Of a stretch of DNA of 32,000 bases, positions 20,056-31,497 are shown in pieces. The DNA is from Flavobacteriaceae bacterium (GTDB lineage: Bacteria; Bacteroidota; Bacteroidia; Flavobacteriales; Flavobacteriaceae): positions 4,980,001 to 5,012,000 of the forward strand of contig OZ245049.1 in NCBI GenBank assembly GCA_965224465.1, read 5' to 3'. A model generated the notes under the pieces. It saw only the letters and a program-made list of their open reading frames with translations. It did not search any database and was not told the origin of the DNA. How positions within the stretch are numbered: the stretch's first letter is position 1; every line of letters starts with the position of its first letter. The translations under genes were made by a program, and so were the position numbers.

Positions 20056-20100
20056 TCTATATTCTGAGGGAGTTATAAAAAAGTAGAGTGAGGCATTTAT

Positions 20101-20257
20101 ACCAACTAAAATCCAAAATGACCGATATAAATAGGTTGTTTTTTGTTCTAGTGTTGTTAAGAAATAGAACGATAGCTAATGCTATCCATCCATTTTTCGA
20201 TTAGCTAAAACAAAAAATAAATTCATTTCTAAACCTTCACTTGGAAATGTGTTTGGT
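20101..20257. repeat. intergenic repeat copy A (~155 bp)
   Basis: It aligns by eye with 21211..21365, e.g. atccaaaat[ga]ac[cg]gatataaataggttgtttt, gttcta..tagaac, gatagc-nnnn-gctatc and ggaaatgt. Its 3' 70 bp also aligns with 22519..22588. Confidence 0.8.
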
Positions 20258-20346
20258 GTTATCCAAATATCCCCGTAATTTTCGCCATTGCGAAAAGTGT
20301 AGGACACAGTGATTTTTAATCCCACTAGTGGGTTTAATTTCCCCAT
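20182..20346 (-). pseudogene. 54-aa minus-strand ORF, probable remnant of a decayed gene family
   Basis: My own translation is MGKLNPLVGLKITVSYTFRNGENYGDIWITPNTFPSEGLEMNLFFVLANRKMDG. It is below the ORF-track cutoff. The C-terminal FPSxGLxMxLFF segment is also encoded in copies B and C, where it is cut by nearby stops. Confidence 0.35.
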
Positions 20347-20755: not shown

Positions 20756-21210
20756 TTGTGTATTATGTTTTACTGTTTGATAATTTTTTAACTTACTTAT
20801 ATGACTGAAAATGACATAAAAATCCAGTACTAATAAGGCTAAATCACTTACCTATATTAATTTATATTTCAAAGATAAGATTAATATTTCTTGATTTAAC
20901 ATAATTTGTCTAGTTTTTTTAAAATTGATCAAGACACTAAGATAAAATTGCATTGTTTTTTTTGTTGTTTGAGGGACACTTAAGTAGTTCAGTTTGTTGT
21001 TTTGTAACGGTTAAGTGTGTCCTGTCTGATTCTGTATAGCAATAAGATTATATAGTTTTTTTAAAAAAGCGTCAATAAAACATTTGTTGGAATGGTGGTT
21101 TTTCAAATAATAGCTTAGAAATAGAGGGGGATTTACTGCGGTCGTCCTCTATTTTAAGGATTGAAAAGATGAGGAGTTTTAGCGTCGATTAGATTCCCTA
21201 AACTATTTGT

Positions 21211-21365
21211 ACCATTTACAATCCAAAATAACGGATATAAATAGGTTGTTTTACGTTCTAGTATTGTTGAAAAACAGAACGATAGCGAAGGCTATCCTTA
21301 GAATTTTCACCTAGCTAAAAAAAAATAGTTTCATTTTTAAACCGTGACTAGGAAATGTATTGGAC
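21211..21365. repeat. intergenic repeat copy B
   Basis: See copy A. Both small hairpins are preserved, with gttct..agaac and gatagc gaag gctatc. Confidence 0.8.
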
Positions 21366-21759: not shown

Positions 21760-22413
21760 ATGAATAAAAAAATAGCCCTATTTATCTTTACAAGTGTAGC
21801 ATGCATAGATATGCTCGGAATTATTCTTGAAATTGAAGTACTACGATTTGTATTTAAACCTTTAATTCTACTGTCCTTAATGGCATTGTATAAGGTAAGT
21901 ACGAGTAATGGAATACACGCTCCCTATTTATTAGCCTTGGTGTTTTCTTTTTTTGGAGATGTTTTTTTGTTGTTTCAAGGGGATTTGTTTTTTATGTTAG
22001 GATTAGGAGCTTTTTTGATAGCGCATTTGTTTTTTATCAAACTCGTAGTTTTGTGGTGGAAGGAATTTAGATTGAGAAATTTACTTTTAACGGCGGTTCC
22101 TTTTGTGTTATTGGTTACAGGTTTGATTGTGTTTTTAAGAAGTTATTTAGATGAAATGTTTGTTCCTGTTGTTGTGTACGCCATGGTTATAGGTGCCTTT
22201 GGGACAGTGGCTACGATATTGTATCAGCAAAGAAAAACGAAAGCTGCATTTACCATGATGCTAGGTGCATTTGTATTTATGGTGTCAGATACCATCTTGT
22301 CTATCAATTTGTTTTACAAACCCATGATGCTGTTGAATATCTTAGTGATGTTTACGTATGTCCTAGCGCAGTACTTGATTTATAGTGCTGTTGTTTTGAA
22401 ACAGAAAATCTAA
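21760..22413 (+). CDS. YhhN-family (lysoplasmalogenase/TMEM86-like) integral membrane protein
   Basis: The 217-aa protein is hydrophobic almost throughout. It has the FSFFGDVFLL and GAFVFMVSDTILS motifs typical of YhhN. Confidence 0.75.
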   Translation: MNKKIALFIFTSVACIDMLGIILEIEVLRFVFKPLILLSLMALYKVSTSNGIHAPYLLALVFSFFGDVFLLFQGDLFFMLGLGAFLIAHLFFIKLVVLWWKEFRLRNLLLTAVPFVLLVTGLIVFLRSYLDEMFVPVVVYAMVIGAFGTVATILYQQRKTKAAFTMMLGAFVFMVSDTILSINLFYKPMMLLNILVMFTYVLAQYLIYSAVVLKQKI

Positions 22414-22518: not shown

Positions 22519-22588
22519 ATCCTTAGAGTTTTCGCCTAACTAAAACAAAAAATAATTCCATTTCTAAACCGTCACTTGGAAATGTATT
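22519..22588. repeat. intergenic repeat copy C (partial), abutting the first RHS cassette
   Basis: The segment atccttagagttttcgcctaactaaaacaaaaaataattccatttctaaaccgtcacttggaaatgtatt aligns with the 3' halves of copies A and B. Confidence 0.75.
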
Positions 22589-22595
22589 TTATAAG

Positions 22596-23786
22596 TTGCA
22601 AAAAACGATCATTGAAAAAAATACTCCAAATGCACTTACCCAATATGTAGGTAATTATGTGTGTAAGAATAATGAATTACAATTCTTTAATCATGCCGAA
22701 GGCTATGTAGAACCAGTCATTGCGAGCGGTAGCGCGGCAATCTCATTCTTTAACTATGTGTACCAGTACAAAGACCATTTAGGGAATATCAGACTGTCAT
22801 ACACAGATGCAGATGGGAATGGGACAATTAAACAGGATGAGATTATTGAAGAAAATAATTATTATCCCTTTGGACTTGAACATAAAGGATACAATAATGT
22901 TGTCAATGGTGCGGAAAACAACTACTACAATTATAACGGGAAAGAGCTTAACGAATCTTTAGGTTTGAATTTGTTAGAATATGAAGCGAGAAGTTATGAT
23001 CCAGCTATAGGAAGATGGACGAGTGTTGACCCGTTAGCTGATAAGTATTATAAATTTAGCCCTTATGTTTATGTTGGTAATAGTCCTACAATAGCAGTCG
23101 ACCCAGATGGAAAAAGAATACTATTTGTAAATGGATATTGGAATAGTTGGATTGGAGGTCTTATAGGTTCAAGTAATCTAGGTAAGAAATACTGGGGAAG
23201 TGGATTTACAAGTGCTGCTCAAAGATTTTTTGGAGATTATTCATCTGTTTCTGATTCTAATTATATTGATGGTTCTTCATCTTTTGGAGGAGATTCAAGT
23301 GGTGGCGGTAGAGAAAAAGATGGATATGCATATGCTAAAGCAAATTATACTACATTAACAGATGGTTTAGCAGAAGATGAAACCTTTAAACTTGTCACTC
23401 ATAGTGAAGGAGGTGCATATGGAGCAAGAGTTGCGAGATATCTAATAGAGAAAGGACATACCGTAGAAACCGTTCTACATTTATCTACAGATGAAGGAGA
23501 CGAATTCGAAACACCTGAAGAAGCAGATACTTATCAATTAAGTTATGGTGGAGATTGGGTAACTGGAAATAAAGAAATCAGTAAAGGTGTTGATATTATT
23601 GGTGTAGTTGATAAATATGAGAAGAAATCAGACAAAAATAAGTATGCTCACGGTTCTACTAAAGGTTCATCTGTGTTTAAGTCTGCCAAAGCTTTATTAA
23701 AAGCAGCAGCGTCAGGAGCGACAGGTGTTAATGTAACTGAAACAAAAAGTGGAATTAAATTTGAATTTATAAGAGATAATAATTAA
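22596..23786 (+). CDS. orphan RHS C-terminal fragment 1: RHS core plus alpha/beta-hydrolase (lipase/esterase-like) toxin domain
   Basis: The RHS core motifs YVYQYKDHLGNIRLSYTD, NNYYPFGL, RSYDPAIGRWTSVDPLA and the cleavage-type VDPDGK (23100..23114) are present. Downstream lie ILFVNG, the nucleophile elbow VTHSEGGAYG (Ser codon 23403..23405) and AHGS. The only start is a TTG, and the fragment lacks the upstream YD repeats, so it may not be translated. Confidence 0.75.
   Translation: MQKTIIEKNTPNALTQYVGNYVCKNNELQFFNHAEGYVEPVIASGSAAISFFNYVYQYKDHLGNIRLSYTDADGNGTIKQDEIIEENNYYPFGLEHKGYNNVVNGAENNYYNYNGKELNESLGLNLLEYEARSYDPAIGRWTSVDPLADKYYKFSPYVYVGNSPTIAVDPDGKRILFVNGYWNSWIGGLIGSSNLGKKYWGSGFTSAAQRFFGDYSSVSDSNYIDGSSSFGGDSSGGGREKDGYAYAKANYTTLTDGLAEDETFKLVTHSEGGAYGARVARYLIEKGHTVETVLHLSTDEGDEFETPEEADTYQLSYGGDWVTGNKEISKGVDIIGVVDKYEKKSDKNKYAHGSTKGSSVFKSAKALLKAAASGATGVNVTETKSGIKFEFIRDNN
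22638..22915 (+). repeat. conserved cassette block, copy 1 (3' half only)
   Basis: It aligns from TQYVGNY onward. Together with cassette 3 it shares the extension NVVNGAE beyond KHKGYN. Confidence 0.85.
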
Positions 23787-24156: not shown

Positions 24157-24210
24157 ATGCTCTAAAGTAAAGCTATATTTTTATCAAAAAAATCTTTAAA
24201 CTTCATATTG

Positions 24211-24352
24211 GTAAGCCCCTGATGCCGCGCGAGTAACCGCAGCGCTACTGCGAGATTGTGTCTCGTGGCGTCAACGTTAAGACCCGAACGCGCGGACATG
24301 TCACCAACGTGATAGCGCGAGATTTGTAATCCGTGCCCTGCATGAGTAAGCC
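24211..24352. repeat. GC-rich junction modules, junction 1 (Y unit with an X unit nested in it)
   Basis: A GC-rich island of about 140 bp sits in an AT-rich background. The Y unit (gagtaaccgcagcgctactgcgagattgtgtctcgtggcgtcaacgttaag) and the X unit (cgcgcggacatgtcaccaacgtgatagcgcgagatttgtaatccgtgccc) both recur at 28622..28780. Confidence 0.8.
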
Positions 24353-24420
24353 ATACAATAGGTATAAAAGCAACCATTAAACGGATTTGTAATCGTTCTT
24401 TTAGGGAACAGTTTAATTCA

Positions 24421-24975
24421 AAAACCAAGGCAGCCATGTTGTGGTTTTTTACATGCTGGCTACACATACATTTCCCTCCTCCTCCTTGTCAAAACCTACG
24501 GATTCAAAAACGGCACAAATACAGGGGGCGAATACCTACGACAAAAACGGAAACATAATCTCCGATGCCAATAAAGGGATTAGCGCCATAACCTACAATT
24601 ATTTAAGCCTACCCGTCAAAGTAGTTTTTGGAACTAACCGTTTTATTGATTATATTTACGATGCCTCAGGTGTAAAACAACAAAAAGTAGTAACTGAGGG
24701 AAGTTCTTTAACAACCACGCAATACGTAGGTAATTATATTTATGAGAATAACAACCTTCAATTCTTTAATCATGCAGAGGGCTATGTAGAACCAGTCATT
24801 GCGAGCGGTAGCGCGGCAATCTCATCCTTTAACTATGTGTACCAATACAAAGATCATTTAGGTAATATTCGACTGTCATACACAGATGCAGATGGGAATG
24901 GGACAATTAAACAGGATGAGATTATTGAAGAAAATAATTATTATCCCTTTGGACTGAAACATAAAGGGTATAATA
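24421..24975 (+). repeat. conserved cassette block, copy 2
   Basis: It is a near-identical direct repeat of 26766..27375, 28768..29350 and 30902..31497. Its 3' half also matches 22638..22915. Confidence 0.9.
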
Positions 24976-25169: not shown

Positions 25170-26437
25170 GGTTCTACCACGAATGTTGTGGAATTAGTAT
25201 CTTTACCTCAAAAAGATGTTTTCAACAAAACTGTTTGAGTTACTATTAAATTTAGGAACAGATTGGAAGGTTTGTGATGTAAAAGTTAATTATCTAGATT
25301 CAGAAATAGACATATTTATAGACTATATACCAACTAAAGCATCTTGTCCAGACACAGAAGAGTTGTGTAGTATTTATGATCATAGAAGCACTCGTAGATG
25401 GCGTCATTTAGACACCTTACAATTCAAAACCTACATTAATTGTAAAGTCCCAAGAGTTAAGTCAACTAAAGGCGTTAAAACGATAACGGTACCATGGGCT
25501 AGTAATTTTTATCGTCATACTTATCTATTTGAAAGGCTAACTATAGACTTATTGAAAGCAACAAAAAATCAAAGTCAAACGGCTAAACTATTACGTTGTG
25601 GCTTTAATATTGTAAACCGAATCATACATACTTCTGTAAAAAGAGGGCTTTCTAAGAGGTCAGAAAACCAAAAATTTTCTCATCTAAGTATTGATGAAAA
25701 AGCTTTCAAAAAGGGGCATAACTATGTGACTGTAGTTAGTGATCCGAGTACAGGAATTGTAATTGATGTTGCAGAAGGCAGGACTAAAAAAGAGACTAAA
25801 ATTTTACTTAAAAAGATTGTAAATGAGATAAATAGAGATGAAGTAGAGACCGTTTCTATTGACATGTGGAAAGCCTATTTATCATCAGTAAAAGAAGTTT
25901 TTCCAAATGCGAAAGTTGTCCATGATCGATTTCACTTAGTAAAGTACTTAAATGATGCTATAGATAAAGTTCGCAGACGTGAAGTGAAAAAAGAAGAAGG
26001 TCTTAAAAATAGTAGATTTGTATTGCTTAAAAATAAAGAAAACTTAACGGATAAACAAAGAGTATTATTTGACAAAATACAAGAAGCAAATTATCAAGCA
26101 AGTAAAGCATGGTTAGCTAAAGAAAATTTTAAAAATATATTTAGAAGCCCATCTTTGAAAGTTGCTTTAGGTCTTTTTATCAAATGGGGAGCAAGTGTTT
26201 TGGAAACAAAAATTAAAGAAATTATAAAGGTTGCTAAGATGTTTAATAACCATATAGAAGGGGTGTGTAATGCAATGATTGAGACTGCTTCTAATGCAAT
26301 GGCAGAAAGACTAAATGGTAAAATACAAGAAATAAAATCTATCGGTAAAGGTTACAGAACTTTCGCTAATTTTAGAAGTGCAATACTATTTTTTAATGGA
26401 GGTTTAGATTTGTACCCACACAAATCGTGGTAGAACC
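25170..26437 (+). mobile_element. ISL3-family insertion sequence (~1.27 kb)
   Basis: The terminal inverted repeats are GGTTCTACCACGAATGTTGTGG (25170..25191) and the reverse complement of 26416..26437, GGTTCTACCACGATTTGTGTGG (19/22 identical). They enclose a single transposase ORF. Confidence 0.88.
25216..26433 (+). CDS. ISL3-family DDE transposase
   Basis: The motifs IDEKAFKKGHNYVTVVSD, SIDMWKAYLSSVKEVFPNAKVVHDRFHLVKYLNDAIDKVRRRE and AERLNGKIQEIKSIGKGYRTFANFRSAILFFNG are typical ISL3 transposase blocks. The protein is 405 aa. Confidence 0.88.
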   Translation: MFSTKLFELLLNLGTDWKVCDVKVNYLDSEIDIFIDYIPTKASCPDTEELCSIYDHRSTRRWRHLDTLQFKTYINCKVPRVKSTKGVKTITVPWASNFYRHTYLFERLTIDLLKATKNQSQTAKLLRCGFNIVNRIIHTSVKRGLSKRSENQKFSHLSIDEKAFKKGHNYVTVVSDPSTGIVIDVAEGRTKKETKILLKKIVNEINRDEVETVSIDMWKAYLSSVKEVFPNAKVVHDRFHLVKYLNDAIDKVRRREVKKEEGLKNSRFVLLKNKENLTDKQRVLFDKIQEANYQASKAWLAKENFKNIFRSPSLKVALGLFIKWGASVLETKIKEIIKVAKMFNNHIEGVCNAMIETASNAMAERLNGKIQEIKSIGKGYRTFANFRSAILFFNGGLDLYPHKSW

Positions 26438-26723
26438 TTATTACATTGTTAAATATGGGGTTCATAAATCAGAATTAACCCCACATATAGATTCTATTGC
26501 TTTACGGTTAAATTATAAAAAATACGGAAAAGAAAATGTGTTTTTTAATCCTAATTCAAAAAAGTTAGAAGTAATAGAAAAGAAATTTGAAATATTATAT
26601 TTAGATAAAGATAGGGTTTGGAAAATAGTTAATTATTCATCCGACATGAAATATCTTAACAGGTATTTTGGAAAAGGGTTTTCTGAGTGTATTAAATCAA
26701 ACCCTCCACTGCTGCAAGAATAA
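26438..26723 (+). pseudogene. 5'-truncated ORF remnant downstream of the IS (possibly the tail of the lost cassette-2 immunity gene)
   Basis: The listed ORF 26427..26723 starts at a GTG inside the IS right inverted repeat. The first internal ATG is near its 3' end. The stop lies inside the GC-rich junction module. Confidence 0.4.
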
Positions 26724-26780
26724 CCACCATCGCTACCGCGATATTCTATCTCGTGGCGTCAACGTTAAGCCACGCAGCAA
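26702..26780. repeat. GC-rich junction module, junction 2 (single Y unit)
   Basis: The unit aataaccaccatcgctaccgcgatattctatctcgtggcgtcaacgttaagccacgcagc is homologous to the Y units of junctions 1, 3 and 4. Confidence 0.8.
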
Positions 26781-27375
26781 TTAAAACTACTAAAACCACA
26801 GCAGAAATGTTGTGGTTTTTACATGTTGGCTACACATACATTTCCCTCCTCCTTCCTCTCCTCCTTGTCAAAACCTACGGCTTTAAAGACGGCACAAATA
26901 CAGGCAACGACTATACCTACGACAAAAACGGAAACATGATCTCCGATGCCAATAAAGGGATTAGCGCCATAACCTACAATTATTTAAACCTACCCATCAA
27001 AGTAAGTTTTGGAACTAACCGTTTTATTGATTATATTTACGATGCCTCAGGAGTAAAACAACAAAAAGTAGTAACTGAGGGAAGTTCTTTAACAACCACG
27101 CAATACGCAGGTAATTATATTTATGAGAATAACAACCTTCAATTCTTTAATCATGCAGAGGGCTATGTAGAACCAGTCATTGCGAGCGGTAGCGCGGCAA
27201 TCTCATCCTTTAACTATGTGTACCAATACAAAGATCATTTAGGTAATATTCGACTGTCATACACAGATGCAGATGGGAATGGGACAATTAAACAGGATGA
27301 GATTATTGAAGAAAATAATTATTATCCCTTTGGACTTAAACATAAAGGGTACAATAATGTCGTGAATGGTGCGGA
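26766..27375 (+). repeat. conserved cassette block, copy 3
   Basis: It is a direct repeat of the other cassette blocks, and the differences are mostly third-codon-position changes. Confidence 0.9.
26796..26820 (+). terminator. terminator-like hairpin plus T-run inside junction 2
   Basis: The hairpin ccacagca gaaa tgttgtgg (8 bp, one G.T pair) is followed by T5. The same element occurs at 28798..28823 and 30931..30956. Confidence 0.6.
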
Positions 27376-28510: not shown

Positions 28511-28621
28511 CTATTGCTTTTACCAGTTTTTTATTGTGCTGATTTTTGAGTTAAGTCAGCTTTAAAGACAAAAGTAAGTAAGTATTATAAAGCAGAACTT
28601 GACGCAATCAAGAAAATGAAA

Positions 28622-28780
28622 TCCCGATGGCGCGGACATACCGCCCACGTGATAGCGCGGATTTGCAATCCGTGCCCACAAAGTGCGTCACGTAAGGTTG
28701 CTCCCCCCGCTGCCGCGTGAGTAACCGCAGCGCTACCACGTAGATTGTATCTCGTGGCGTCAGAGAGTAAGCCACGCAGC
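28622..28780. repeat. GC-rich junction modules, junction 3 (X unit then Y unit)
   Basis: The X unit is ggcgcggacataccgcccacgtgatagcgcggatttgcaatccgtgccc. The Y unit is gagtaaccgcagcgctaccacgtagattgtatctcgtggcgtcagagagtaagccacgcagc. The order is the opposite of junction 1. Confidence 0.8.
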
Positions 28781-29350
28781 AATTAAAACTACTAAAACCA
28801 CAGCAGAAATGTTGTGGTTTTTTACATGCTGGCTACACATACATTTCCCTCCTCCTCCTCCTTGTCAAAACCTACGGATTCAAAGACGGCACAAATACAG
28901 ACAACGACTATACCTACGACAAAAACGGAAACATGATCTCCGATGCCAATAAAGGGATTAGCGCCATAACCTACAATTATTTAAACCTACCCACCAAAGT
29001 AAGTTTTGGAACTAACCGTTTTATTGATTATATTTACGATGCCTCAGGTGTAAAGCAACAAAAAGTAGTAACTGAGGGAAGTTCTTTAACAACCACGCAA
29101 TACGCAGGTAATTATATTTATGAAAATAACAACCTTCAATTCTTTAATCATGCAGAGGGCTATGTAGAGCCAGTTATTGCGAGCGGTAGCGCGGCAATCT
29201 CATCCTTTAACTATGTGTACCAATACAAAGACCATTTAGGGAATATCAGACTGTCATATACTGATGCAGATGGGAATGGGACAATTAAACAGGATGAAAT
29301 TATTGAAGAAAATAATTATTATCCCTTTGGACTGAAACATAAAGGGTATA
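28768..29350 (+). repeat. conserved cassette block, copy 4 (homology with copy 2 continues to ~29510)
   Basis: It is a direct repeat. The extra ~160 bp (SSLGNSVAQRYKFGGKEYDESFDGTLNTYDFGARNYDPAIGRWMNIDPLA) is shared only with cassette 2. Confidence 0.9.
28798..28823 (+). terminator. terminator-like hairpin plus T-run inside junction 3
   Basis: The hairpin is ccacagca gaaa tgttgtgg, followed by T6. Confidence 0.6.
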
Positions 29351-30835: not shown

Positions 30836-30907
30836 CCTCCCCGTTGGTGCGCGAATAACCGCCATCGCTATTACACGAATCTTTCATGTAGTGTCCACGA
30901 GTAAGCC
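30836..30907. repeat. GC-rich junction module, junction 4 (single, more diverged Y unit)
   Basis: The unit is cctccccgttggtgcgcgaataaccgccatcgctattacacgaatctttcatgtagtgtccacgagtaagcc. Confidence 0.7.
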
Positions 30908-31497
30908 AACAAGCAATTAAAACAACAAAACCACAGCAGTAAGCTGTGGTTTTTTTATATGTTGGCTACACATACATTTCCCTCCTCCTCCTTGTCATTT
31001 CCATAAAGGAAAGACAAAACCTACGGATTCAAAGACGGCACAAATACAGGCAACGTATACCTACGACAAAAACGGAAACATGATCTCCGATGCCAATAAA
31101 GAGATTAGCGCCATAACCTACAATTATTTAAACCTACCCGTCAAAGTAGTTTTTGGAACTAACCGTTTTATTGATTATATTTACAATGCCTCAGGAGTAA
31201 AACAACAAAAAGTAGTAACTGAGGGAAGTTCTTTAACAACCACGCAATACGCGGGTAATTATATTTATGAGAATAACAACCTTCAATTCTTTAATCATGC
31301 AGAGGGCTATGTAGAACCAGTTATTGCGAGCGGTAGCGCGGCAATCTCATCCTTTAACTATGTGTATCAATACAAAGACCATTTAGGGAATATCAGACTG
31401 TCATACACAGATGCAGATGGGAATGGGACAATTAAACAGGATGAAATTATTGAAGAAAATAATTATTATCCCTTTGGACTGAAACATAAGGGGTATA
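30902..31497 (+). repeat. conserved cassette block, copy 5
   Basis: It is a direct repeat of the other blocks. It contains a 19-bp palindromic insertion (atttccataaaggaaagac) after the CCT tract and a 2-nt deletion near 31055. Confidence 0.9.
30931..30956 (+). terminator. terminator-like hairpin plus T-run inside junction 4
   Basis: The hairpin ccacagc agtaa gctgtgg is followed by T7. The loop differs from junctions 2 and 3, and the G.T pair is now G-C, so the stem is preserved. Confidence 0.6.

What the first reader, a model, noticed from the sequence alone, without database searches (positions are those of the whole stretch)
28622..28780. GC-rich modular units (about 50-75 bp) form a conserved non-coding junction between cassettes
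Seen in the sequence: every cassette junction (24211..24352, 26702..26780, 28622..28780, 30836..30907) contains one or two GC-rich units that stand out sharply from the AT-rich background. The Y units share taacc[ga]c[ca][ga][ct]cgcta[ct]. This is followed by a short hairpin whose stem sequence differs between copies but still pairs: gaga/tctc in J1, agat/atct in J3, gata/tatc in J2 and gaa/ttc in J4. A second hairpin follows (gtggc ... gccac in J2 and J3), ending in [ag]gt[ta]aagcc. The X units look like diverged paralogues of Y, for example gcgagatttgtaatccgtgcc versus gcgagattgtgtctcgtggcg, and both end in agtaagcc/gttaagcc. The minus-strand ORFs predicted here (24162..24467, 28585..28782) are just translations of these repeats. 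Inference: stem preservation with sequence change suggests a structured RNA or a DNA hairpin. Candidates are a REP/MITE-like element, a recombination or processing site, or a small RNA associated with each cassette. Standard orphan-cassette models do not predict conserved non-coding sequence upstream of the homology block.
Basis: seen in the sequence. Interest (0 to 1): 0.7.

Follow-up and report, generated by a model that had tools for sequence, protein, structure and literature searches.

The report
REP hairpin repeats at Rhs cassette junctions
The GC-rich units between the toxin cassettes are copies of a known kind of small hairpin-forming repeat (REP elements, partnered with a RAYT transposase) that in flavobacteria pile up just downstream of Rhs toxin-immunity modules.

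Summary
The units are real: four Y units and two X units, all on the + strand. They are the only strongly GC-rich non-coding islands in the window. Within the window, the evidence for a structure is weak. Across 200 related loci, however, the central hairpin is conserved, with many compensatory stem changes and a near-constant G.T wobble (CGC-N5-loop-N5'-GTG).

Both unit types flank REP-associated tyrosine transposase (RAYT) genes as inverted pairs. This holds in Spongiimicrobium, Ulvibacterium, Wocania, Polaribacter, Aquimarina, Kordia, Psychroflexus and Flavobacterium. X-type and Y-type units go with different RAYT clades. So the units are REP elements of the atypical Bacteroidota RAYT group (subclass 2.6 of Quentin et al. 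2018). They are not an integron-like site, a tRNA remnant or decayed coding sequence.

In the window, the Y REP is the 5' edge of the repeated junction block (REP, terminator, leader, YD-core fragment). It was therefore most likely amplified passively with the cassettes.

One thing is not ordinary: a strong enrichment. In 39 loci, all 50 model hits lie 1-7.6 kb downstream of the Rhs core, with none in about 36 kb of other ORF-free DNA. RAYT genes also often sit beside Rhs modules. The cause of this association is unknown.

The parts
24216..24284 (+). J1 Y unit. It is a composite: a hairpin-less REP head (CCCC..GCCGCG-GAGTAAcc, 24216-24239) followed by a full Y-type REP. The REP has head CGCTAC, a hairpin at 24248-24268 (TGC-GAGAT-TGT-GTCTC-GTG) and the tail ..CGTTAAG.
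   Evidence: Sequence; alignment; covariance model R1 hit 24235-24287, 31.8 bits, E 4e-6.
24283..24352 (+). J1 X unit. X-type REP: CCCGAACGCGCGGA.. then GATAG-CGC-G(A)GATT-TGT-AATCC-GTG-CC (hairpin 24315-24336, one bulged base) and the tail ..ATGAGTAAGCC.
   Evidence: R1 hit 24302-24355, 30.9 bits.
26702..26772 (+). J2 Y unit. Hairpin at 26736-26756 (CGC-GATAT-TCT-ATCTC-GTG, one mismatch). The stop codon of the upstream ORF 26427-26723 lies inside the hairpin-less head (gaaTAAcc).
   Evidence: R1 hit 26723-26775, 35.9 bits.
28623..28700 (+). J3 X unit. A truncated head (CCCGATGGCGCGGA) followed by a full X-type REP, GATAG-CGC-GGATT-TGC-AATCC-GTG-CC (hairpin 28655-28675, perfect).
   Evidence: R1 hit 28642-28694, 40.9 bits, E 5e-9.
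28703..28773 (+). J3 Y unit. Hairpin-less head (CCCCCCGCTGCCGCGTGAGTAAcc) followed by a Y-type REP. Hairpin at 28736-28757 (CAC-G(T)AGAT-TGT-ATCTC-GTG), tail ..GAGAGTAAGCC.
   Evidence: R1 hit 28723-28776, 23.8 bits, E 0.0015.
30836..30907 (+). J4 Y unit, degenerate. The closing triplets have changed to TAC...GTA and still pair. Hairpin at 30872-30890 with one mismatch; tail ..CGAGTAAGCC.
   Evidence: R1 does not detect it at E<=1.
24421..24450 (+). Intrinsic-terminator-like hairpin plus T run. Together with the leader TACATGCTGGCTACACATACATTTCCCTCCTCC it belongs to the repeated junction block that follows the REP(s).
   Evidence: Repeat family D5; sequence.
26792..26821 (+). The same terminator-like hairpin in junction J2.
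28794..28823 (+). The same terminator-like hairpin in junction J3.
30927..30957 (+). The same terminator-like hairpin in junction J4.

Best explanation
The X and Y units are REP (repetitive extragenic palindromic) elements. They are the cognate hairpin repeats of the Bacteroidota-type REP-associated tyrosine transposases (RAYT, an HUH/Y1 enzyme; subclass 2.6 of Quentin et al. 2018, group 5 of Bertels).

Each unit has four parts: a conserved 5' head (CCCC-GCT-N-S in Y, CC-GAT-R-G in X); a 9-bp hairpin closed by CGC...GTG with a G.T mispair; a 3-4 nt loop; and often a GAGTAAG tail 8-10 nt after the stem.

By analogy with E. coli TnpAREP and IS608 TnpA, the element works as single-stranded DNA (inferred). 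The enzyme would bind the folded hairpin on one strand, and the mispair and head would give strand and site specificity.

In this window the REPs are probably not transposing (inferred). The Y REP is the first element of a repeated block (REP, terminator, leader, YD-core fragment) that was duplicated along with the orphan cassettes. Co-orientation with the rhs genes and the position just after immunity-gene stop codons mean the hairpins are also likely transcribed into the 3' end of the toxin-immunity mRNA. There they may act as REPs do elsewhere, as a stabiliser or terminator. This last step is inference only.
For: Hairpin and covariation.
- An anchor-only search that imposed no 3' requirement gave 41 distinct instances. 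Of these, 28 have a contiguous stem of at least 8 bp with many different stem sequences.
- In the 45-sequence alignment A2, the pair 14-34, which my selection did not impose, is GC 21, CG 17, GU 2, other 5.

RAYT flanked by inverted units.
- L050 has two RAYT copies flanked by X-type units, L060 has Y-type units, and L042 and L035 have upstream Y-type units.
- These proteins hit NCBIfam NF047646 'REP-associated tyrosine transposase' at 85.8-105.2 bits (cut-off 80), plus Pfam Y1_Tnp.
- A profile of them has PDB 4ER8 (E. coli TnpAREP) as its top hit, E 1.2e-6.
- Their motifs S/N-H-[VIL]-H, WQ and YIHNNP match subclass 2.6 in PMC6006769.

Independent check.
- Model R1 was built from Rhs-linked units. 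It finds inverted REP pairs around RAYT in six loci that were fetched through the RAYT protein alone. These include new compensatory stems such as GGACT/AGTCC.

REP type tracks RAYT clade.
- The clade scoring >=286 bits has X-type flanks. The clade scoring 105-194 bits has Y-type flanks.

R1 recovers five of the six window units.

Dispersed copies.
- A metagenome scan gave 148 distinct Y-type instances on 120 contigs. Most are away from Rhs genes, with up to 4 per 8 kb.

Block edge.
- Homology between the window and the relative L085 begins exactly at the Y head, at 26703, 28701-28705 and 30839.
Against: - No RAYT gene lies in the window, and I could not retrieve the source genome. Its own RAYT and genome-wide REP census are therefore unknown.
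- The canonical GT[AG]G guide tetranucleotide of classical REPs is absent.
- The 22 kb of ordinary genes in the window contain no unit.
- In Rhs-centred loci the units are confined to the zone after the toxin-immunity module. This is unusual for a randomly dispersed REP family and is not explained by the REP identity alone.
- The sequences used to build R1 were chosen for perfect inner stems, so covariation counts for those five pairs are circular.
- A single RAYT sequence gave no PDB hit; only the profile did.
Confidence: 0.82

Rival explanations
1. The REP/RAYT system is functionally coupled to Rhs cassette turnover. Directly oriented REPs bracket each toxin-immunity module the way the LE and RE hairpins bracket an IS200/IS605 element. 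A RAYT could then excise or insert modules as single-stranded DNA. Alternatively, the REP-tail-terminator acts as the 3' homology arm for cassette swapping.
For: - All 50 model hits in 39 loci lie 1-7.6 kb downstream of the core, with none in about 36 kb of other ORF-free sequence.
- RAYT genes sit directly after Rhs modules in about 9 of 78 Rhs-centred loci.
- Rhs cassettes lie within 10 kb in 2 of 6 RAYT-centred loci.
- Y-type REPs with the GAGT tail had an Rhs core upstream in 6 of 7 informative metagenome cases. The figure was 0 of 30 for the dispersed GTTTTTCTTACAA-tail subfamily.
- The units are co-oriented with the rhs gene.
- The repeated block in the window starts exactly at the REP head.
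Against: - No excision product, empty site or cassette precisely bounded by REP cleavage sites was found.
- RAYTs are generally regarded as domesticated and not known to move cargo.
- Rhs 3' regions collect other mobile DNA too (ISL3 in the window, IS200 in L085). The enrichment could simply reflect tolerance of insertions plus hitch-hiking on horizontally exchanged modules.
- Within arrays, the long core fragment already supplies homology.
Confidence: 0.1
2. The units act mainly as RNA. They would be a structured 3'-UTR element or small RNA (hairpin, GAGTAAG, A-rich linker, terminator) that stabilises or regulates toxin-immunity transcripts. Any link to RAYT would be incidental.
For: - The closing G.T would be a G.U pair only on the + strand.
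- The units are co-oriented with the rhs genes.
- In most Rhs-linked copies the hairpin is followed by GAGTAAG, an A-rich stretch and an intrinsic terminator whose stem sequence varies.
- REPs elsewhere are known to stabilise mRNA and terminate transcription (PMC6006769, background section).
Against: - No Rfam family matches.
- The same hairpins occur in both orientations around RAYT genes and in inverted clusters, which an RNA-only element does not predict.
- In J1 and in several relatives a terminator lies upstream of the unit, so read-through from the immunity gene is uncertain.
- No expression data are available.
Confidence: 0.06
3. The units are attC-like sites of an integron-like array, comparable to the recombinase-associated rAID-1 arrays of Bacteroidales. 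A tyrosine recombinase would recombine them.
For: - The units are imperfect palindromes at the 3' end of each cassette.
- J1 and J2 end in GTTAAGC, which fits GTTRRRY.
- rAID-1 arrays have repetitive intergenic sequences 'reminiscent of integrons' (10.1101/471110).
- The T. maritimum locus L001 has a Phage_integrase gene upstream of its Rhs array.
Against: - Tyrosine recombinases were found in only 4 of 85 loci and not next to the arrays; the window has none.
- The family-wide tail is GAGTAAG, not GTTRRRY, and there is no RYYYAAC partner.
- The L001 GC-rich patches are coding sequence and unrelated to the units.
- The units demonstrably flank HUH transposase genes instead.
Confidence: 0.02

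Closest known systems
REP elements with RAYT of subclass 2.6 (Quentin et al. 2018, PMC6006769), equal to RAYT group 5 of Bertels et al. 2017, mostly Bacteroidetes
   Same: - The RAYT is about 184 aa with [SN]H[VIL]H, WQ and YIHNNP motifs.
- The gene is flanked by inverted hairpin repeats, and copies of the hairpin occur elsewhere in the genome.
- Hairpin type co-varies with the RAYT clade.
- The canonical GTAG foot is absent; the paper calls these 'atypical secondary structures'.
   Different: The paper does not describe the sequence or structure consensus (head, CGC...GTG closing with G.T, GAGTAAG tail), the X and Y subfamilies, or the concentration downstream of Rhs toxin-immunity modules. 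I could not see its figure 7, so I could not check whether any of its examples is identical.
Classical gammaproteobacterial REP/BIME/REPIN with group 2/3 RAYTs (E. coli TnpAREP, PDB 4ER8)
   Same: - Short GC-rich imperfect palindromes that are extragenic and often clustered.
- Inverted pairs around the RAYT gene (a REPtron).
- A mismatch in the stem.
   Different: - There is no 5' GT[AG]G; the head is CCCC-GCT-N-S or CC-GAT-R-G.
- Copies after Rhs modules are mostly single and co-oriented, not inverted doublets.
- The protein is only distantly related (profile E 1.2e-6).
IS200/IS605 subterminal hairpins (IS608, ISDra2)
   Same: - Hairpins recognised as single-stranded DNA by a Y1 HUH enzyme.
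- A conserved short sequence 5' of the foot and another at a fixed distance 3' of the hairpin.
- Same-strand orientation of the two ends.
   Different: The window has no transposase between the units. The true IS200 copy in L085 (5100-5660) has unrelated hairpins.
Integron attC sites and rAID-1 intergenic repeats (Ross et al. 2019)
   Same: A structured imperfect palindrome at the 3' end of each cassette in an array of toxin and immunity genes.
   Different: There is no integrase or XerD-like recombinase and there are no R''/R' core sites. The associated enzyme is an HUH transposase.

Membership tests
REP / RAYT system | Short (about 20-65 nt) imperfect palindrome able to form a hairpin, conserved in structure | tested here: met
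   A 9-bp stem with a 3-4 nt loop. In the anchor-only search, 28 of 41 instances have a contiguous stem of at least 8 bp. The unbiased pair 14-34 covaries, GC 21 and CG 17.
REP / RAYT system | RAYT (Y1 HUH) gene flanked by two copies in inverted orientation | tested here: met
   Met in relatives: L050, L060, L086-L088 and L209-L211. The proteins pass the NF047646 cut-off. Not testable for the source genome, because the window has no RAYT.
REP / RAYT system | Many dispersed, mainly extragenic copies in one genome | tested here: inconclusive
   The window has copies only at the four junctions. Metagenome contigs carry up to 4 Y-type copies per 8 kb away from Rhs genes, and 99 of 110 matches lie outside ORFs of at least 100 aa. 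The source genome could not be fetched.
REP / RAYT system | Conserved guide tetranucleotide GT[AG]G at the 5' foot (canonical groups 2/3) | tested here: not met
   The head is CCCC-GCT-N-S (Y) or CC-GAT-R-G (X). This agrees with the 'atypical' structures reported for subclass 2.6.
REP / RAYT system | REP type co-varies with its RAYT lineage | tested here: met
   Where flanks were detected, X-type flanks occur only with the >=286-bit clade and Y-type only with the 105-194-bit clade.
REP / RAYT system | RAYT binds and cleaves the single-stranded REP | not testable with these tools
   Requires biochemistry.
Integron attC | R'' RYYYAAC and R' GTTRRRY core sites pairing in the folded strand | tested here: not met
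   GTTAAGC occurs only in J1 and J2. The family tail is GAGTAAG, and there is no RYYYAAC partner.
Integron attC / rAID-1 | Adjacent tyrosine recombinase (IntI or XerD-like) at the array end | tested here: not met
   The window has none. phmmer with XerD finds recombinases in only 4 of 85 loci, not array-linked.
Known RNA families (Rfam) and tRNA | Match to a curated covariance model or a cloverleaf | tested here: not met
   There are no hits at gathering score, and no hit over the units at E<=5. ARAGORN finds no tRNA.

The most novel reading that the evidence does not exclude
In Flavobacteriaceae a REP/RAYT system is mechanistically tied to Rhs toxin diversification. Co-oriented REP hairpins would mark the ends of toxin-immunity modules. 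An HUH transposase would use them to move or exchange modules as single-stranded DNA, or they would be the selected 3' recombination arm. Either way this would be an HUH-driven counterpart of the integron.
Probability: 0.1. Interest if true: 0.8.

Novelty: new member of a known kind. Interest (0 to 1): 0.35.

Why it matters
The identification removes a false lead: this is not a new cassette-junction RNA or an integron-like site. It also gives a sequence and structure definition (head, CGC...GTG hairpin with G.T, GAGTAAG tail, and X and Y subfamilies) for the poorly described 'atypical' REPs of Bacteroidota RAYTs.

The remaining puzzle is why these REPs, and often the RAYT gene itself, gather immediately downstream of Rhs toxin-immunity modules across many genera. 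If this is more than hitch-hiking, it would link a domesticated single-strand transposase to polymorphic-toxin evolution.

Tried and rejected
1. tRNA-like reading. Loops such as TTTGCAA and TTTGTAA resemble anticodon loops, but ARAGORN finds nothing, there is no T-arm, and the loops are simply near-palindromic.

2. Coding remnant. All Y units have an in-frame R/Q-E-TAA. This is explained by the repeated GAGTAA tail motif. X copies differ by a 1-nt indel, stems covary, and no Pfam family matches.

3. Integron or rAID-like attC site. Rejected for lack of a recombinase and of core sites.

4. The GC-rich patches in T. maritimum L001 are coding sequence and unrelated to the units.

5. The IS200 copy in L085 looked at first like the cognate transposase, but its end hairpins are unrelated to the units.

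6. Fetching the source genome failed. Two exact-protein look-ups found nothing, and the genome-contig scan did not return the source species (best identity 70%).

7. A single-sequence PDB search with the RAYT found nothing. A profile was needed.

8. Rfam at relaxed thresholds gave only chance-level hits, all outside the units.

Full report
**The setting**

The window comes from an AT-rich member of the Bacteroidota (34% G+C). It carries SusC/SusD pairs, ligA and other housekeeping genes up to yhhN at 21760-22413. From 22596 to the end of the window there is an array of five Rhs/YD C-terminal cassettes on the + strand. Their core fragments start at about 22599, 24534, 26873, 28870 and 31056. 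Cassette 1 is interrupted by an ISL3 transposase, and cassette 2 ends in a Colicin_D domain.

Every junction has the same layout:
- the immunity-side ORF;
- one or two GC-rich units;
- the sequence TAAGCCACGCAGCAATTAAAACTACTAAA;
- a terminator-like hairpin with a T run;
- the leader TACATGCTGGCTACACATACATTTCCCTCCTCC;
- the YD core fragment.

**Checking the observation**

Apart from one conserved coding stretch of the core, they are the only GC islands in the cassette region. Four Y units and two X units align with each other, and their motifs are well above chance.

Inside the window, though, the case for a structure is thin:
- Fold energies are within about two standard deviations of shuffled sequence.
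- The stem differences between J1, J2 and J3 are partly register shifts, not compensatory changes.
- The second hairpin is not conserved outside the closest relatives.
- No Rfam family and no tRNA matches.

**Bringing in relatives**

A protein search with the YD core, look-ups of the contigs that encode the hits and a scan of species-representative genomes gave 85 loci from many Flavobacteriaceae genera. Profile searches with the window units found similar GC-rich units in these loci. They almost always lie 1.5-5 kb downstream of the core match and on the same strand.

A structural search showed a common design:
- a head, CCCC-GCT-N-S in Y-type units and CC-GAT-R-G in X-type units;
- then CGC, five variable bases, a 3-4 nt loop (often TGT or TGC), the complement of the five bases, and GTG.

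There were 62 such sites against 3-14 in shuffled sequence.

That search required perfect stems, so I repeated it with the head alone as anchor. Of 41 distinct instances, 28 have a contiguous stem of at least 8 bp directly after the anchor, with a wide range of stem sequences. The rest are chance matches in coding sequence or visibly truncated units. In the gapless 45-sequence alignment A2, the outermost pair was not imposed by my selection, and it switches between G-C (21) and C-G (17). The hairpin is therefore real and under selection. The G.T in the closing triplet is nearly constant.

**What the window's Y unit is made of**

The Y unit turns out to be a composite. It starts with a hairpin-less head that ends in GAGTAA, followed by a complete REP that ends in GAGTAAGCC or GTTAAGCC.

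**Identity**

In Spongiimicrobium (L050), two copies of a 184-194-aa ORF are each flanked by X-type units in inverted orientation. The ORF is a Y1 HUH transposase (Pfam PF01797). It passes the curated cut-off of NCBIfam NF047646, 'REP-associated tyrosine transposase', as do its homologues in L007, L018, L067 and L037.

Homologues lie just after Rhs modules in about nine of the Rhs-centred loci. In Ulvibacterium marinum (L060) the gene is flanked by inverted Y-type units. The protein family is large, with 3749 hits, and public sources name it RayT. A profile of it finds E. coli TnpAREP (PDB 4ER8) as its best solved relative, followed by IS200/IS605 transposases.

For an independent test, I fetched six loci through the RAYT protein alone: Wocania, Polaribacter, Aquimarina, Psychroflexus, Kordia and Flavobacterium. 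The covariance model R1 was built only from Rhs-linked units. It finds inverted REP pairs around the RAYT gene in all six loci, with further compensatory stems.

RAYTs flanked by X-type units form one clade and those flanked by Y-type units form another. This is the RAYT-REP co-evolution expected for such systems. The motifs ([SN]H[VIL]H, WQ, YIHNNP), the length and the 'atypical secondary structures' match RAYT subclass 2.6 of Quentin et al. 2018, which is mostly found in Bacteroidetes. R1 recovers five of the six window units, and the J4 copy is degenerate.

**Are the units cassette-specific?**

No, but they are strongly enriched.

- *Rhs-centred view.* Most Rhs-centred loci have a single core, meaning a full-length gene with no orphans, yet they still carry units after the toxin-immunity pair. 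In the 39 loci with 10 kb on both sides of the core, all 50 hits lie 1-7.6 kb downstream of the start of the core match. That is 1.3-2.2 hits per kb of ORF-free DNA. There are none in about 26 kb of ORF-free DNA upstream and none in about 10 kb at the far downstream end. Twenty-two of the 39 loci have at least one unit.
- *REP-centred view.* A metagenome scan for Y-type REPs gave 148 distinct instances on 120 contigs. Among those with at least 2 kb of upstream sequence, 15 of 76 lie within 6 kb downstream of an Rhs core on the same strand. A large subfamily with the tail GTTTTTCTTACAA is dispersed (0 of 30 near Rhs; up to four copies in 8 kb). The subfamily with the GAGT[AG] tail, to which the window units belong, had Rhs upstream in 6 of 7 cases.
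- *RAYT-centred view.* In the RAYT-centred loci, two of the three REP clusters away from the RAYT follow an Rhs-immunity pair (L086 at 1456 and L088 at 20498). The third follows a helicase gene.

**How the units behave in the window**

Alignment with the close relative L085 covers a similar array that sits in a different genomic neighbourhood. It shows that the conserved junction block starts exactly at the Y head (26703, 28701-28705, 30839). The block then runs through the terminator and leader into the core fragment, while the toxin and immunity parts differ. In L085 a Y unit also precedes the first cassette.

The window copies are therefore best explained as one REP that became the 5' edge of the repeated block and was amplified with it. 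Independent insertions at each junction are less likely. J1 and J3 additionally carry an X-type REP on different sides of Y, which indicates at least some separate events.

**What is shown and what is inferred**

Shown:
- the hairpin and its covariation;
- the inverted flanking of RAYT genes;
- the correspondence between REP type and RAYT clade;
- the enrichment after Rhs modules;
- the position of the block edge.

Inferred from established knowledge of TnpAREP and IS608 TnpA:
- recognition as single-stranded DNA;
- the G.T mispair and the head as strand and site determinants.

Speculative:
- any role in mRNA 3'-end formation or in cassette exchange.

**Alternatives considered**

The integron or rAID-like reading fails because there is no recombinase and there are no core sites. 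The tRNA-remnant and coding-remnant readings fail. I found no paper in the searchable library that links REP elements to Rhs cassettes.

**Verdict**

These are REP elements, an ordinary kind of sequence. The notable and unexplained feature is their accumulation, together with their RAYT genes, at the 3' ends of Rhs toxin-immunity modules in Flavobacteriaceae.

Noticed in passing
window 25216-26433: An ISL3-family transposase (DDE_Tnp_ISL3, E 1.6e-68) is inserted in cassette 1. It separates the toxin tip from the 98-aa ORF 26427-26723, which runs into the J2 unit.
   Followed up: partly
window 20095-20262, 21205-21361, 22519-22595: A second, AT-rich intergenic repeat family of about 70-170 nt, ending in CACTTGGAAATGTRTTT. 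It flanks the region between ligA and the first cassette. A 74%-identical copy occurs in L085 at 1309-1500. It is unrelated to the REPs and its nature is unknown.
   Followed up: no
window 22596-23786: The first cassette is 5'-truncated relative to the others: its core homology starts at query residue 63. It abuts yhhN and has no REP, terminator or leader in front of it.
   Followed up: partly
L007 13068-13743 (Aquimarina pacifica): Directly downstream of a RAYT gene there is a tandem array with a 167-bp period, made of alternating + and - X-type REPs (four repeats).
   Followed up: no
L085 5100-5660: A compact IS200-type element is inserted in frame-breaking fashion inside an Rhs cassette. 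It encodes a class-1 Y1_Tnp (118.6 bits) and has its own end hairpins (GGGACTTTCAGTCCC, CTCTGCACTTTTAGTGCAGAG). It is unrelated to the REP hairpins.
   Followed up: partly
L050, L007, L018, L060, L042, L035, L037, L026, L067; L121, L167; L086, L088: RAYT genes, normally single-copy domesticated genes, lie within a few kb of Rhs toxin-immunity modules. This holds in about 9 of 78 Rhs-centred genome loci, in two metagenome contigs and in 2 of 6 RAYT-centred loci. L050 has two RAYT copies bracketing a 170-aa ORF.
   Followed up: partly
window 24340-24352, 26763-26772, 28764-28773, 30897-30907, and relatives: Rhs-linked REPs of both X and Y type carry a GAGTAAG tail 8-10 nt after the stem. The tail is followed by an A-rich linker and an intrinsic terminator whose stem sequence differs between genera. 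The fixed spacing recalls the cleavage-site distance at the right end of IS608.
   Followed up: partly
L016 11893-11989, L062 14830-14946: A sub-module, CCCGATCGCTCGGATATG(N)GATAGC, can be tandemly repeated upstream of an X-type hairpin. The 5' part of the window's X units (CCCGATGGCGCGGACAT..) appears to be the same sub-module.
   Followed up: no
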